64,000 bases of DNA from NCBI RefSeq assembly GCF_963506605.1, contig NC_083276.1, positions 31,124,001-31,188,000 on the forward strand. Direction: 5' to 3'. Position numbers: made by a program. The stretch is from Zootoca vivipara. Taxonomy: Eukaryota. This document shows, in pieces, positions 36,001 through 60,000 of the stretch (position 1 is its first letter; every line of letters starts with the position of its first letter).

Positions 36001-39000
36001 AGCTGGGCCGTGCAGCAAACATTCGAAAACACCATCAGTGAATTTTAAAAAGCAAATTGGCGAACACAGAATAAATTCAACTTTTTTAAAAAATAAATCC
36101 CTAGGTTTAAGTACTTAAATATAAAGCAAGAGTTAACCGACAATAAAGTTTCTGGTCTCCCAGCACGCCAAGGAGCCTGGCTTAAATACAGTTCAGAGGG
36201 AAGCCAGGTTAGGTGACATCTACAACCTGGCTCCCCTATCCTTTACTCCAGAGGAGGCTGACAGCAAGAGAAGAGAAATGTTGGGGAGGGCAATGATGGT
36301 CACTCTTCCCCAGCCTCCTATGAATACTAACTTGCTGATGCAGGTCTTATGGTCTGCCCTGAGCCCCCAAAAAATAAATAATTTTTTTTAAAAGAGCTTT
36401 TCCTTTATTCAAACAAAGGACGCACTTGATAGAACCAAGTGTATACAATTTATGCTTAAAATTCTCTACAGAAATCTTGTATTCAAGGCAACAGATGTCA
36501 AGCAGAAGGCAGCAGTGATAGCTTGCAGTCACTATTTTTCATGTCCAAGTGTGGAATTTAAATACTATGGGACATTGACCATGGATCTGAGATTTTATTC
36601 GTTTATTTGGGAGATACTGCTAATAAAACCTGCAAAATAAGCCCACGATTAATACAAGCTTATTATTATTACAGTGGTACCTTGGTTTAAGAACAGCTTA
36701 GTTTATGAACAACTTGGATTAAGAACGCTGCAAACCCGGAAGTAGGTGTTTTGGTTTGTGAACTTTGCCTTGGAATAAGAACATGTTTTGCTTCCTGTTG
36801 AGTGTGTTCCATTTGTAAATTGAGTCCCCTGCTGCTATGGAAAGCACACCTTGGTTAAAGAACGCTTTGGTTTAAGAACGGACTTCTGGAACGGATTAAG
36901 TTCGTAAACCAAGGTACCACTGTACAATGTATTACCCGCCCTTCCCTCTAAGGTCCCAGTGATTCCACAAATAGACTTTGAATTAGACTTTGAATTAATG
37001 GAAGAAACCCTCAATTCTTTGGAGAGGCAAAGAGAGGAACTGGGGGTAGAGTTACAGAGGATGGCTATATGGCTTATAATCTGTTCATTTGTCCATATGG
37101 GCAACAAAATGTTGCCCATATGTTGTATTGGGAAGGCTAAGTAACCAGGGAAATTGTGCATTCTAAATTCAAGATTCCTGGGTATTCTAGAAATGCATTA
37201 CTCACCTAGAGTTGTTTTGTAGTCCTCAATTCTAATTTTCTCTGCTGTTTAAAAGCAGCATTATTTCTCTCTACAATGTAGTCCAATGTACTCTTCTAGT
37301 AACCATGATCTAAAGAACGAACCTTCTTACATCTCTTAAAATGGAGATCATGAGTGTAAGGGTAGTTCCACATCACCCAGAAAATGGCTTGTTACATGTT
37401 GTTGTTTAGTCTGACCCCCATGGACCAGAGCACGTCAGGCACTCCTGTCTTGCACTGCCTCCCACAGTTTGGTCACTCATGTTGGTAGCTTTGAGAACAC
37501 TGTCCAACCAACTTGTCCTCTGTTGTCCCCTTCTCCTTGTGCCCTCCATCTTTCCCAACATCAGGGTCTTTTCCAGGGAGTCTTCTCTTCTCATGAGGTG
37601 GCCAAAGTATTGGAGCCTCAGCTTCAGGATCTGATCATTTTAGGCAACAGATCCTGAAGCTGAGGCTTGTTACATATGCTACAATTAAAAGAAAAGCTTG
37701 GGATATTTCTATCTCTCTCCTTCAAAATGTGGAATATTTTGTACCCTGAAATATTTCAGCTGTTGGAGATTGTTAAAATCTCAGCAGTGGCTGCTCCACA
37801 CAGCCCATAAAATTTCACTCCATTCAATCCAGTCCAGTCCAGGCACTTACCTCCACAAAGTATTCAGAAGCTCACCTCTTCAAGCTCCTCTCTTTTCAAT
37901 ACTCTACAATGAATTTCTGTGTTTTACAGGGGCCCTGCTGTCTCAAAAGCTATATACAGTACACACCATTTGTGTTAAATTAAATCACCTCACATGGATT
38001 TGTTTATGTAAGACATAAGTTTTGTAAAGTTTTTTTTTATTCAAGTCTACTTTAGAAACTTGTATACCATTGCTACACATTTTATTTTTTAAAAAAAGTT
38101 TATAAAAATACAGATATATATACACACACATTAGTGTTCTTCATGCCTGTTCATTTGTGGAAAGCCTCTACCTTCCAGTAGACTCCCATCTTTAGAAAAA
38201 AGGGATGTTAAGCTATGCACAGCAAGATATTCTTACCTAGAGTTCACATTAAAAACACAAAATCAAGTATCATCTCTACTGTAGTCCTAGAACATGATCA
38301 AAAGATATAATATTGTGGCTTTTTCTACTCATTGCTATAGACGCTAAACAGTATAGAGCACTTCATTAATATAGCAAGAGCCTATTTTGTGTTGCATAAT
38401 TCCTAGCTAGAGATGGAAACTCTTTAAACTTTTTGTCTTTTATTGGCATCTGTAACCTGGAGTGTAATTGGGGGAAGCAAAACCCGGTTTCAGTCATTTG
38501 TACAATTCTTATTTTGTGTATATATTTCATAGATTTACATTTTCAGAATTTAACCACAGAATTCATTATCCACAGTACAGCATTATAAGCTAGTTCTCTT
38601 CTTACTCCCCACCCCACCCCACCCCAGCCAAAAAAAAAAAAGGAAAAAGGAAACCTGGTTCACAAATCAGCAGGTCTTCGACATTTTAGGCAAAATTTGA
38701 TACATAATTGATGTATTGGAGTCATTACCATGAATGGGACACAAAATACAAGTTAATTACAGAATGCAAACCATGATCTCTTACATGACCTAAAAGAATT
38801 GTACTCTCAAATCTGGTCTTGCATAAAGTTTTGTGGTTTTTTTAAACCCAATATACCTATATATAGCAGTGTTCCTGGCATCCTAGAAAAGTGAAAAAAT
38901 ACTGATAGATGGTAGGATGCATGCAGGTGTAAAGAATAAGCTCATGTTGATAAATATTACTACCTCCAGTGACAAATATCTGAGTGGACCTGGATGGGAA

Positions 39001-57000: not shown

Positions 57001-60000
57001 CACAATCCTGTCTATGCAAAAGTAAGTCCTAATTCATGAGGCTTACTTCCAGGCAAACAGAGCCTTGGTATATCTTGGCGATTGCTGGTAAAAGCTGAAA
57101 ACTTTACCACCTTCAATCCCTCCCAGCTCACCAAGGCTTGATGCCCTTCCACAATGCCCCATTTATCTCTGTAACTAAATGAAACCTGGGCTGAGTAACT
57201 GAAGAGGGACCATGCGCAGCTTTCCACATCCCCTGCAATGTCTCATCAGAGATCTGGGTGACCATCCTCAATACTGGGGGGTCGGGTCCCCCTGACACTC
57301 CAGAGATGTTTTGTGGCAGGCTGAACAAGGCTGAGGACCTCCTTGCGGAAGCCCATGTTTGTATAAAATAACATGCAATTTTATATTTGCTTCTGTGTAC
57401 TGAATGCACAAATTGTTTTATCATATTTGAACGGAATTCTACAATAGCCAAGGATGATATTCAAAACTCCAGAGGGCTAATGTAGAGTGTGGGTCATCAA
57501 TATCCAGACATTCAGGGAGAAGTAAAATCTGCCCATTCTGCTACTTCAATCTCCCCCCACCTCACTTCTTTACACTTTCTTCTATCATCAAGCTGGACAG
57601 ACTAAACACAACATTCCATCTGTTCCAGCATGGTATTCATTGCAGCCTAGTTTGATTCAACCATTCTCACTAAAACCATTTCAGAATTCCACCCTCAAAA
57701 TAACAAGTTGAACCAAATCCAAACACAACCAGGTGTGAACACACACTAGTATAACCTGAGCCACTCTGTCGCAAATCACCAAGCTTCTTCGGCACACCTG
57801 CTTCAAGGGATCGTCTCTATGATGAACAACTAACTGATAACAGAATCCTCTAATCAAATGCTTCTTCCCGTAGGGCAAGGAGGGGAAACCAGATATCCTC
57901 CAGCTTCATGTTCCAGTAGCAGCAGCCAGCAAAGGCAACAGCCAGGAACAAGACCAGTCGTAGTCCTACCGGTACTACTTCCAGGGTCCAGAAGTTCCCC
58001 ATATTCGATATACAAGTCCCTCTGATGACCTAAGCGAAAAATTGCCCTCGTCACCAGTCCAGCACCAACAGCTTCTGCATTATGGGCTTTAAACAGACGG
58101 CTACATCAGGCAGCCGCCTTGCATTGAACGCCTATGCTAAAGGCTGCCATTCAGGGCACACGGCCTCCCCTCAATCCAATCCAGGGGGACTTGCTTTCGA
58201 ATAAACCTGAACAAAACCTCGTGCTCACACACGTATCGCGTTTGCTGTGACTTGAATCACACTGAGTTCAACGGGGTTTAACTCCATCCCGAGGGGGCTC
58301 GCACGACGGGTTCCGGATTAACCAAGATCTCGAAGGGCGACCCTTGCCATGCTTACTCGGCAGTAAGTCCCACTGGACTTAGCGGCGTTTACCCCTGGGA
58401 AACACGTGCTTCGGGGCTGCCGCTCTGACCGAGGGAAGCGGCTCCGGGAGTCCGCGCCCGGCGTTGCTTCAAGGCTGCAGCACCCGAAGCAGGCGGCGCA
58501 GGCAGGCCCGAAGCCCTCCTCGCCAATTATGGACGGCTCGGGGCCGCTTCGACACCCGCCTTCCCCGCACCCCTCCAGCCGGTGCTCGGCTTACCATCCG
58601 CGGCGGCCCGGCAGGCGAGGAGCGGCCCCTGGCCGGCGTCAAGGCAACCCGCGCGCAACCCCCAGCTGCCCCCACCGCACAGAGCCAAACTTCGCGACTC
58701 GTCGCCTCCTGATGACATCACCTGTCAGTCACCGCCATAAGAGTTCTTCCTCCCGCCCCTCCGTTCGGAGTGGATGCCGGGAAGGAGGAGACGCACCTGC
58801 TCCTGGAGTTAGCCCCGCCCACCCCTTTCCCACAGGAGGCTCTTAAGAGGCCGGCTGCGCCTTGTGAGGACTCAGATCTCTGTGTTCAGAGAGGCTTACA
58901 GGCTCCCTGGGGGCAATGTTAGAAACTGAGATATGAAAACGGAGCTCAATGGCACCTTAAACCTAAGTTATGGGCGCAACAACGAAATGTCTAGGCGTGC
59001 TTTTTTATAACAAGAATACAAAGCTGAAAATGAATGTACTGCAGTGTTATGTACTGAGCTGAATCCTAGAACAATAGGATTCAGAATCAGCGGGAGCTAC
59101 CCAATCCAACTCCAGGTGGAAGTGAATCCGCAACCTGATTGGCCTGCTGGAGCAGCCAATCAGGCGGCTGGCAGAAGTGAATCTGCTACCTGATTGGCCT
59201 GTAGGAGCAGCCAATCAGGCTGCAGGCAAAAGTCAATCCACAATATAATTGGCCCACAGGTGTAGCCCTGAAGTAGCCAATCACGCAAGGCCCATTGTGT
59301 AAATAATGTATATAAGCAGATGGTTTTGGGAAAAGAGCCATTCGTCTTCTCTTCTCCTCCTTGATGACTATGAGCTGAATAAAGAGCATGAAATTCACTC
59401 TTGACTCCGAGTATATTTCACTGGCGACGAAGGTGGGATCCTGCTGAGCTGACCGCCACCACGCACTGCACCGCAGCACCGCCACCTGCTGCACCGCTGC
59501 ATCGCACCGTGCATCCAGGCTTCAGCTCCAGGACCCAAGGAACCCAGAATGGCAACCGACAGCAGCTTCTCGCCATTCAAACCAGCATCAGGAGACTGGG
59601 AAGGGTACGCCGCCCGTTTCAACTTCCTCCTGCAAGCGAAAGAAGTCACCAACGATGCCATGAAGAGGGCGACATTCTTCAGCGTCTGTGGAGAGGAGAC
59701 GTTTGAAATCGCCCGGGCTCTCCTTGCACCTAGAGATGTCGCTACCGTCTCTTACAAAACAATAATGGAACGGCTGAAGGAGCACTTCTCACCACAGCCC
59801 TCGGTGGTAGCTTGCCGAAATGCCTTCTACGCAAAACGGCAAGCCCCGGGGGAAACCATAACTGGGTTTGTGACCTCCCTCCGCCAAGCCGCCCGGTTAT
59901 GCAACTTCTCAGAATTGGAGAACATGCTTCGTGACCGCCTCGTCGGTGGCCTGAGGGACGAGATGTTGCAACGACGCCTCTACGCCAAAAAAGACCTCAC

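What the first reader, a model, noticed from the sequence alone, without database searches (positions are those of the whole stretch)
36030..58870. PROSER1 occupies the position held by SEC23A in the human GEMIN2 block
Seen: an intact 13-exon PROSER1 ends about 2.2 kb upstream of the GEMIN2 start, in tandem, with no sequence gap. Known (recalled): in human the order is SEC23A-GEMIN2-TRAPPC6B-PNN-MIA2 on chr14, while PROSER1 is on chr13 head-to-head with NHLRC3. No NHLRC3 or SEC23A coding exon was recognised in the window. All introns are retained, so this is not a retrocopy. Inference: DNA-level gene relocation or a rearrangement breakpoint in the squamate lineage, possibly with capture of a new CpG promoter and leader exon.
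Basis: partly seen in the sequence, partly recalled or inferred. Interest (0 to 1): 0.65.

Follow-up and report, generated by a model that had tools for sequence, protein, structure and literature searches.

The report
PROSER1-like gene abutting the GEMIN2 block
A complete, intron-containing PROSER1-like gene really does sit where birds and mammals have SEC23A, next to GEMIN2; this most likely marks an ordinary chromosome-rearrangement breakpoint, and a young retrotransposon fills the rest of the window, so the window cannot show how much DNA moved.

Summary
On the minus strand, a gene with a DUF4476 domain and a large Ser/Pro-rich exon runs from a CpG island (58200-58870) to a stop codon at 39555. 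It has 11 coding exons, one optional exon and an unlocated leader exon. Predicted poly(A) signals lie 2.2 kb upstream of the GEMIN2 start codon (35811). GEMIN2, TRAPPC6B and PNN follow in the human/bird order and orientation. The window has no N. None of 568 open frames outside the retroelement matches a Sec23 or NHL family.

Papers show that a bird and mammals share both original neighbourhoods, SEC23A-GEMIN2 and the Nbea-Foxo1 block that holds PROSER1 and NHLRC3. The adjacency is therefore probably derived, if the source is an amniote.

Relocation of a single gene is untested. Everything from 175 bp beyond the CpG island is a Ty3/Gypsy-type LTR retrotransposon (59045 to the window end). Its LTRs are identical and it has one uninterrupted 1356-codon frame. 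The absence of NHLRC3 from the window therefore says nothing.

Nothing suggests a captured promoter. A two-break rearrangement that carried PROSER1 together with its upstream neighbours is the simplest reading. A misjoin, a duplicate copy or an insertion of PROSER1 alone remain possible. Interest is low to moderate.

The parts
35690..35811 (-). Coding part of GEMIN2 exon 1. ATG at 35811, GT donor after 35690.
   Evidence: Read from the sequence. Downstream exons hit SIP1 in collinear order and human GEMIN2 chains. Exon 1 itself had no Pfam hit.
35400..36000 (.). CpG island at the GEMIN2 start.
   Evidence: GC 0.61, CpG observed/expected 0.81.
36001..38035 (.). Spacer between the predicted 3' end of the PROSER1-like gene and GEMIN2. 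It is the interval that must hold the rearrangement junction. It is CpG-poor and carries two interspersed-repeat copies (36670-36924 and 37416-37633).
   Evidence: 0-5 CpG per 200 nt. Repeat families D6/D8 and D5/D10. No Pfam family of note in its open frames.
38036..39554 (-). Predicted 3' UTR of the PROSER1-like gene, with AATAAA at 38086-38081 and 38041-38036.
   Evidence: Predicted only, with no transcript data.
39555..39686 (-). Terminal coding exon. The stop codon TAA is at 39557-39555.
   Evidence: Acceptor score 6.7, phase fits the previous exon. No Pfam hit.
40771..40918 (-). Penultimate coding exon.
   Evidence: Phase-consistent, donor score 5.1, weak acceptor 0.7. No Pfam hit.
41755..43441 (-). 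Large Ser/Pro/Ala-rich exon (1687 nt): S 20.9%, P 16.2%, A 14.4%.
   Evidence: The Atlas lead is a chordate 'putative DUF4476 domain-containing protein', score 0.82. No Pfam family.
46951..47046 (-). Coding exon.
   Evidence: Splice scores 6.9 and 7.8, phase-consistent on both sides. No Pfam hit.
48338..48416 (-). Coding exon.
   Evidence: Splice scores 7.3 and 7.8, phase-consistent. Not searched singly.
49417..49500 (-). Coding exon.
   Evidence: Splice scores 9.0 and 4.9, phase-consistent. No Pfam hit.
50466..50576 (-). Optional in-phase exon (111 nt). Including it gives 13 exons.
   Evidence: Splice scores 4.5 and 6.3. No Pfam hit. Unresolved.
51498..51591 (-). Coding exon that encodes the end of the DUF4476 domain.
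   Evidence: DUF4476 profile 64-91 of 91, E 1.6e-4. Its open frame gave E 1.8e-5.
51923..52017 (-). Coding exon that encodes the middle of the DUF4476 domain.
   Evidence: DUF4476 profile 36-62 of 91, E 5.4e-5, 23.8 bits against a cut-off of 22.5.
52994..53062 (-). Probable coding exon (69 nt, symmetrical phase).
   Evidence: Splice scores 3.7 and 6.1. No Pfam hit alone or in its open frame.
54783..54848 (-). Probable coding exon (66 nt, symmetrical phase).
   Evidence: Splice scores 6.0 and 7.6. No Pfam hit.
55673..55780 (-). First coding exon. ATG at 55717, 15 codons, preceded by 63 nt of 5' UTR and an acceptor, so an upstream leader exon is implied.
   Evidence: Too short to search in its own frame.
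58200..58870 (.). CpG island and presumed promoter with an unlocated non-coding leader exon of the PROSER1-like gene. Minus-strand donor candidates follow 58797, 58722 and 58595.
   Evidence: GC 0.65, CpG observed/expected 0.91. Donor scores 10.2, 7.9 and 8.9. No convincing plus-strand ATG exon.
59045..64000 (+). Ty3/Gypsy-type LTR retrotransposon, cut by the window end.
- The part of the 5' LTR that can be matched is 59044-59415.
- One uninterrupted frame runs 59549-63619 (1356 codons).
- The 3' LTR starts at 63629-63630 and runs off the window.
- No stops or frameshifts were seen in the frame.
- There is no room for an env gene: 9 nt lie between the stop and the 3' repeat.
   Evidence: 372 of 372 compared LTR bases are identical.

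Pfam domains by residue: aspartyl protease 302-391, RVT_1 500-647, RNase H 710-844, integrase zinc domain 951-1005, rve 1021-1111.

The best solved relative is the Ty3 Gag-Pol polyprotein 7q5b, E 2.2e-88.
17330..24594 (+). Neighbour: TRAPPC6B. The approximate start is read from the open frame 16998-17552. The last exon was not located.
   Evidence: Four open frames hit the Pfam TRAPP profile collinearly, at 22-39, 38-81, 81-109 and 110-140. Against PDB 2cfh_C (TRAPPC6B), all 41 aligned query residues (4-44) appear in the printed match line; 84.5 bits against 53 for TRAPPC6A.
6713..16096 (-). Neighbour: PNN.
   Evidence: Pinin_SDK_N at E 4e-19 and two Pinin_SDK_memA hits. The last exon is a 410-aa Glu- and Ser/Arg-rich ORF at 6713-7945. 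It shares the CpG island 15600-17700 with TRAPPC6B.

Best explanation
A complete PROSER1-like gene lies tail-to-head with GEMIN2. It has its introns, its own CpG-island start, a DUF4476 domain and a long Ser/Pro-rich body. GEMIN2 heads an otherwise conserved GEMIN2-TRAPPC6B-PNN block.

Most likely this is one junction of an ordinary two-break chromosomal rearrangement, an inversion or a translocation, fixed in the lineage of this non-mammalian vertebrate. One break fell between GEMIN2 and SEC23A. The other fell just downstream of PROSER1, where mammals have STOML3 (recalled). PROSER1 would then have arrived with its promoter and probably with its upstream neighbours (NHLRC3 and onward), not alone. 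The junction must lie in 36.0-38.0 kb.

Shown: gene identities, order, orientation, continuity of the sequence, and the absence of SEC23A- or NHL-like exons.

Inferred: that the state is derived, the size of the moved segment, and the poly(A) site.
For: - Gene identities and order.
- Phase-consistent splice chain with high-scoring sites.
- No N in the window.
- 0 of 568 open frames hit a Sec23 or NHL family.
- There is no second CpG island between GEMIN2 and the PROSER1-like 3' end, so no SEC23A-type promoter remains.
- The same interspersed-repeat families occur on both sides of the junction. D3 lies at 25027 and 31283 and also at 46650 and 52247. D4/D7 lies at 2486 and 4901 and also at 40163. 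Both halves therefore come from one genome.
- Polarity, first side: passages of PMC11146322 say the Nbea-Foxo1 block with Proser1 and Nhlrc3 keeps order and orientation in ten tetrapod outgroups including a bird.
- Polarity, second side: a turkey chromosome 5 table row in PMC8470100 lists SEC23A, GEMIN2, TRAPPC6B, PNN and MIA2 in order.
- The PMC11146322 passages also report that this block is rearranged in several bat lineages, so it can break.
Against: - The window ends inside a retrotransposon 175 bp beyond the CpG island, so nothing shows that NHLRC3 or any other neighbour travelled with PROSER1.
- The source taxon was not established. If it lies outside amniotes, the polarity argument fails.
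- No read-level or second-assembly support for the join could be consulted.
- The human positions of PROSER1, NHLRC3 and STOML3 are recalled, not retrieved.
- The tetrapod gene-order file of PMC11146322 (File S3) is a supplement that I could not open. That paper sampled no reptile.
Confidence: 0.5

Rival explanations
1. A small DNA-level relocation or duplication of PROSER1 alone. A unit of about 21-23 kb, from promoter to poly(A) site, was copied or moved into the GEMIN2-SEC23A spacer. SEC23A would lie just beyond the retroelement, and the original locus was either lost or is still present.
For: - The unit seen is exactly one gene with its promoter and 3' end.
- No neighbour from the Nbea-Foxo1 block is visible in the window.
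- All predicted exons are open, so the copy is not decayed.
Against: - The missing neighbours are fully explained by the retroelement that fills 59045-64000.
- Moves of a single intact intron-containing gene with its promoter are much rarer than two-break rearrangements (general knowledge).
- No duplication signature, such as flanking direct repeats of the unit, was reported by the repeat search.
Confidence: 0.2
2. Assembly misjoin. Two true loci of the same genome were joined in the repeat-bearing spacer between 36.0 and 38.0 kb.
For: The spacer holds two interspersed-repeat copies that are 76-94% identical to copies elsewhere in the window. Such repeats can mislead an assembler. No read evidence could be consulted.
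Against: - There is no N and no gap.
- The repeats are short, about 220-255 nt, and diverged, so long reads would span them.
- GC content is even across the join.
- Both genes end or start cleanly, with an ordinary spacer between them.
Confidence: 0.12
3. The adjacency is an old state kept by this lineage, and the arrangement seen in birds and mammals is not ancestral for the group to which the source belongs.
For: - The taxon of the window is unknown to me.
- The papers read cover one bird order each, plus mammals only.
Against: Two independent neighbourhoods, SEC23A-GEMIN2 and PROSER1 within Nbea-Foxo1, are each shared by a bird and mammals. For any amniote source, parsimony makes them ancestral.
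Confidence: 0.1

Closest known systems
The SEC23A-GEMIN2-TRAPPC6B-PNN-MIA2 gene block of birds and mammals. The turkey chromosome 5 row is in PMC8470100. The human order is recalled.
   Same: GEMIN2 (-), TRAPPC6B (+) and PNN (-) lie in the same order and relative orientation. PNN and TRAPPC6B share a CpG island.
   Different: The place of SEC23A is taken by a PROSER1-like gene that lies in tandem with GEMIN2, not head-to-head. No Sec23-family exon is present. MIA2 beyond PNN could not be confirmed.
The Nbea-Foxo1 ('NF') synteny block that holds PROSER1 and NHLRC3, and its rearrangements in bats (PMC11146322, passages read).
   Same: A block otherwise stable across the tetrapods sampled is broken at or beside PROSER1, as the paper reports for several bat lineages.
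   Different: - The partner here is the GEMIN2 block, not the cat-eye block.
- The source is not a mammal: its GEMIN2 exon is only 26 of 50 identical to human.
- Whether the rest of the block follows PROSER1 is unknown.
Ty3/Gypsy (Metaviridae) LTR retrotransposons. This is the closest known kind for the side finding at 59045-64000.
   Same: - Direct LTRs.
- One gag-pol frame with the order protease, reverse transcriptase, RNase H, integrase.
- The best solved relative is the Ty3 Gag-Pol polyprotein.
- No env.
   Different: - It is a vertebrate copy.
- No Pfam gag family was matched at E<=0.01.
- The 3' end and the target-site duplication lie outside the window.

Membership tests
PROSER1 (vertebrate DUF4476 protein) | N-terminal DUF4476 domain | tested here: met
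   Two consecutive predicted exons hit PF14771 at profile 36-62 (E 5.4e-5) and 64-91 (E 1.6e-4; 1.8e-5 for the open frame). Profile positions 1-35 were not detected in the two short upstream exons.
PROSER1 (vertebrate DUF4476 protein) | Long Ser/Pro-rich remainder, mostly in one large exon (that this defines the family is recalled) | tested here: met
   The 1687-nt exon has S 20.9%, P 16.2% and A 14.4%.
PROSER1 (vertebrate DUF4476 protein) | Nearest relatives are proteins named PROSER1 | tested here: inconclusive
   - The Atlas first hit is 'putative DUF4476 domain-containing protein', Chordata, score 0.82, which is a lead only.
- The search of named clusters gave no usable hit.
- No paper links the two names.
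PROSER1 (vertebrate DUF4476 protein) | Conserved neighbours (NHLRC3 upstream, STOML3 downstream; recalled) | tested here: not met
   The downstream neighbour is GEMIN2. The upstream side is not testable because a retroelement fills it to the window end.
Processed retrocopy | No introns | tested here: not met
   At least 10 introns with AG/GT borders lie between phase-consistent exons.
Amniote GEMIN2 block | GEMIN2, TRAPPC6B and PNN in order, with alternating orientation | tested here: met
Amniote GEMIN2 block | SEC23A upstream of GEMIN2, head-to-head (the orientation is recalled) | tested here: not met
   0 of 568 open frames hit a Sec23/Sec24 family. The position is occupied by the PROSER1-like gene.
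Amniote GEMIN2 block | MIA2 beyond PNN | tested here: inconclusive
   The open frame 1-222 (-) looked suggestive to me, but it has no Pfam hit and no PDB hit.
Ty3/Gypsy LTR retrotransposon | Two direct LTRs | tested here: met
   59044-59415 equals 63629-64000, 372 of 372 bases. The match runs off the window end.
Ty3/Gypsy LTR retrotransposon | pol order protease, RT, RNase H, integrase | tested here: met
   Pfam domains fall in that order along one 1356-aa frame. The best PDB hit is Ty3 Gag-Pol 7q5b, E 2.2e-88.
Ty3/Gypsy LTR retrotransposon | Target-site duplication | not testable with these tools
   The 3' end of the element lies beyond base 64000.
Endogenous retrovirus (with env) | An env reading frame between pol and the 3' LTR | tested here: not met
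   The frame ends at 63619 and the 3' repeat starts at 63629.

The most novel reading that the evidence does not exclude
PROSER1 alone, as an intact unit of about 21-23 kb with promoter, introns and 3' end, was moved or copied by a DNA-level event into the spacer between GEMIN2 and SEC23A. SEC23A would lie just past the retroelement. This would be a clean relocation of a single gene between two otherwise conserved neighbours.
Probability: 0.15. Interest if true: 0.5.

Novelty: new member of a known kind. Interest (0 to 1): 0.25.

Why it matters
- If the join is real, it marks one lineage-specific breakpoint in two gene neighbourhoods that a bird and mammals both keep. That makes it useful as a rare-genomic-change character for reptile or other vertebrate phylogeny and for reconstructing karyotype evolution.
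- It places the 3' end of one gene about 2.2 kb from the promoter of an essential snRNP-assembly gene. Transcriptional read-through into that promoter would be worth a look in expression data.
- It does not point to a new mechanism.
- The side finding is of routine interest for repeat annotation: a retrotransposon with identical LTRs and one uninterrupted frame sits 175 bp from a CpG-island promoter.

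Tried and rejected
I used stop-free open frames by reference in its place.
- Seven of the nine exons searched singly, and the optional exon, gave no Pfam family. The Atlas search of named clusters gave nothing.
- I looked for an NHLRC3-like first exon on the plus strand of the CpG island. There is no convincing ATG exon with a donor.
- My guess of MIA2 at 1-222 (-) found no Pfam or PDB hit.
- Rfam and the tRNA scan found nothing in the window.
- Retrocopy is rejected because introns are present.
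- A chimera between species is rejected because both halves share repeat families.
- 'Captured promoter' has nothing for it. The island resembles those of the neighbouring genes.
- The retroelement is not part of the island. Its LTR is CpG-poor, with observed/expected 0.29.
- Literature: PROSER1+GEMIN2 gave 1 paper, unrelated by its listing. PROSER1+lizard gave 2 papers, unrelated by their listings. PROSER1+DUF4476 gave 0. DUF4476 alone gave 2 papers, on cilia by their listings. I found no printed account of a PROSER1-GEMIN2 adjacency in this library.

Full report
**What the window is.** It has 64000 bases with no N. GC is about 0.40, with three CpG islands and a GC-rich right end. I do not take it for human. 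One GEMIN2 exon is only 26 of 50 residues identical to the human chain by my count of the printed alignment. The window also carries an uninterrupted Ty3/Gypsy-type element.

**Gene map.**
- PNN lies on the minus strand. Pinin_SDK_N scores E 4e-19 in the open frame 15953-16096. There are two Pinin_SDK_memA hits at 8858-9127 and 8668-8844. A 410-aa Glu- and Ser/Arg-rich last exon lies at 6713-7945.
- TRAPPC6B lies on the plus strand. Four open frames hit the TRAPP profile collinearly. One matches human TRAPPC6B: all 41 aligned query residues (4-44) appear in the printed match line, with 84.5 bits against 53 for TRAPPC6A.
- GEMIN2 lies on the minus strand. Exon 1 has its ATG at 35811 and a donor after 35690. 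Four further open frames hit SIP1 in collinear order, and one exon matches human GEMIN2 chains at E 1e-9.
- This is the order and orientation of the block that a turkey table row lists as SEC23A, GEMIN2, TRAPPC6B, PNN, MIA2 (PMC8470100, passage). I recall the same order for human.

**The gene in the finding.** I built a splice model on the minus strand with simple donor and acceptor weight matrices. Their frequencies are recalled approximations, so the scores are only relative. I also required open reading frames and phase consistency between successive exons.

The coding exons are:
- 55780-55673 (ATG 55717)
- 54848-54783
- 53062-52994
- 52017-51923
- 51591-51498
- 49500-49417
- 48416-48338
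- 47046-46951
- 43441-41755
- 40918-40771
- 39686-39555 (stop)

Nineteen of the 21 splice-site scores of these eleven exons exceed 3.0, the 95th percentile of all AG sites in the region (for GT sites the 90th percentile is 4.6 and the 95th 6.4). The exceptions are the acceptors at 40918 (0.7) and 51591 (3.0).

The exon lengths sum to 2592 nt, or 864 codons. With the optional in-phase exon 50576-50466 the total is 901 codons. The first coding exon has an acceptor and 63 nt of 5' UTR, so a non-coding leader exon must lie upstream. It is presumably in the CpG island at 58200-58870, where several strong minus-strand donors exist. I could not place it. The count is thus 12 or 13 exons.

The joined coding sequence was neither built nor searched, which limits the homology evidence.
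- Of 11 coding exons, 9 could be searched singly in their own frame. The ATG exon is too short, and 48416-48338 was not sent.
- Two of the 9 hit DUF4476, at adjoining profile positions 36-62 and 64-91.
- The other seven, and the optional exon, hit nothing.
- The two short exons 54848-54783 and 53062-52994 are phase-symmetrical. They rest on splice scores alone.
- The large exon is Ser/Pro/Ala-rich. Its only outside support is an Atlas lead to a chordate 'putative DUF4476 domain-containing protein' at score 0.82, which the tool itself rates as a lead. A second Atlas search restricted to named clusters gave nothing.
- That the vertebrate DUF4476 plus Ser/Pro-rich protein is PROSER1 is my recollection. 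No tool or paper returned the name.

**Distance to GEMIN2.** The stop codon is 3744 nt from the GEMIN2 ATG. Two AATAAA signals at 38086 and 38041 lie 2270 and 2225 nt from it. The spacer 36.0-38.0 kb is CpG-poor and holds no Pfam-detectable coding remnant. It contains two interspersed-repeat copies, at 36670-36924 and 37416-37633.

**Absence of SEC23A and NHLRC3.** I scanned 568 stop-free open frames outside the retroelement. None matched a Sec23/Sec24 or NHL family at E<=0.01.
- The families found were the expected ones: DUF4476, TRAPP, the two Pinin families and SIP1.
- There were also eight single matches to unrelated families at E 0.0016-0.0091, about what chance gives at this threshold.
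- Exons lying in shorter open frames were not scanned.

From 59045 to the window end the sequence is an LTR retrotransposon on the plus strand.
- The stretch 59044-59415 is identical at 372 of 372 bases to 63629-64000. The match runs off the window, so the 3' end and any target-site duplication are out of view.
- Between the LTRs lies one uninterrupted frame of 1356 codons (59549-63619), with no stops or frameshifts.
- Its domains run protease, reverse transcriptase, RNase H, integrase. Its best solved relative is the Ty3 Gag-Pol polyprotein (7q5b, E 2.2e-88).
- There is no room for env.
- By eye, the translation printed shows two CCHC-type knuckles in the gag part. No Pfam gag family reached E<=0.01.
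- The element begins 175 bp from the edge of the CpG island. Its LTR is CpG-poor, so the island is not part of it.
- The consequence for the finding is direct. The window holds no host sequence upstream of the PROSER1-like promoter, so 'no NHLRC3 exon' is uninformative.

I describe this element only.

**Polarity.** Passages of PMC11146322 define a Nbea-Foxo1 block that includes Proser1 and Nhlrc3. [quoted passage not shown] The underlying table (File S3) is a supplement that I could not open, and no reptile was sampled. With the turkey row for SEC23A-GEMIN2, both original adjacencies are shared by a bird and mammals. For an amniote source, the adjacency here is therefore derived.

**Explanations.**
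- The simplest is a two-break rearrangement whose junction lies in 36.0-38.0 kb and which brought PROSER1 with its own promoter and, probably, its upstream neighbours (confidence 0.5).
- A move or copy of PROSER1 alone (0.2), an assembly misjoin (0.12) and retention of an older state (0.1) are not excluded.
- Shared repeat families on both sides of the join argue against a chimera between species, but not against a misjoin within one genome.
- Nothing supports 'capture of a new CpG promoter'. GEMIN2 and PNN/TRAPPC6B start at islands of similar composition.

**Verdict.** This is an ordinary kind of event, a lineage-specific synteny breakpoint, of modest interest. I found no printed account of it in the library searched. 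The decisive evidence is descriptive and lies outside the window: the sequence past 64000, the other loci in the same assembly, gene order in other vertebrates, and read-level support.

Noticed in passing
window 59045-64000 (+): Ty3/Gypsy-type LTR retrotransposon with 372 of 372 identical LTR bases and one uninterrupted 1356-codon gag-pol frame. It starts 175 bp from the PROSER1-like CpG island and is cut by the window end.
   Followed up: yes
window 5453-5546, 10486-10579, 18579-18672, 33317-33410: An interspersed repeat family (core of about 94 nt, 61-95% identical), with one copy beside a GEMIN2 exon. I recall similar units from reptile SINEs, but no tool named it.
   Followed up: partly
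window 13920-14118, 30499-30727, 36670-36924; 23798-24017 and 37416-37633: Two further repeat families. One copy of each lies in the 2.2-kb spacer between the PROSER1-like 3' end and GEMIN2.
   Followed up: partly
window 25008-25096, 31278-31352, 46650-46732, 52247-52316: Short units of 70-81 nt found both as direct and as inverted repeats, on both sides of the GEMIN2/PROSER1 join. They look like a miniature inverted-repeat element family.
   Followed up: no
window 15600-17700: One CpG island (GC 0.58, observed/expected 0.84) is shared by the divergent PNN and TRAPPC6B starts.
   Followed up: partly
window 55006-55047: A perfect (GT)21 microsatellite in the first coding intron of the PROSER1-like gene.
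   Followed up: no
window 1-222 (-): An open frame whose translation reminded me of the start of a MIA-family domain, as expected if MIA2 follows PNN. It has no Pfam or PDB hit, so it is unconfirmed.
   Followed up: yes
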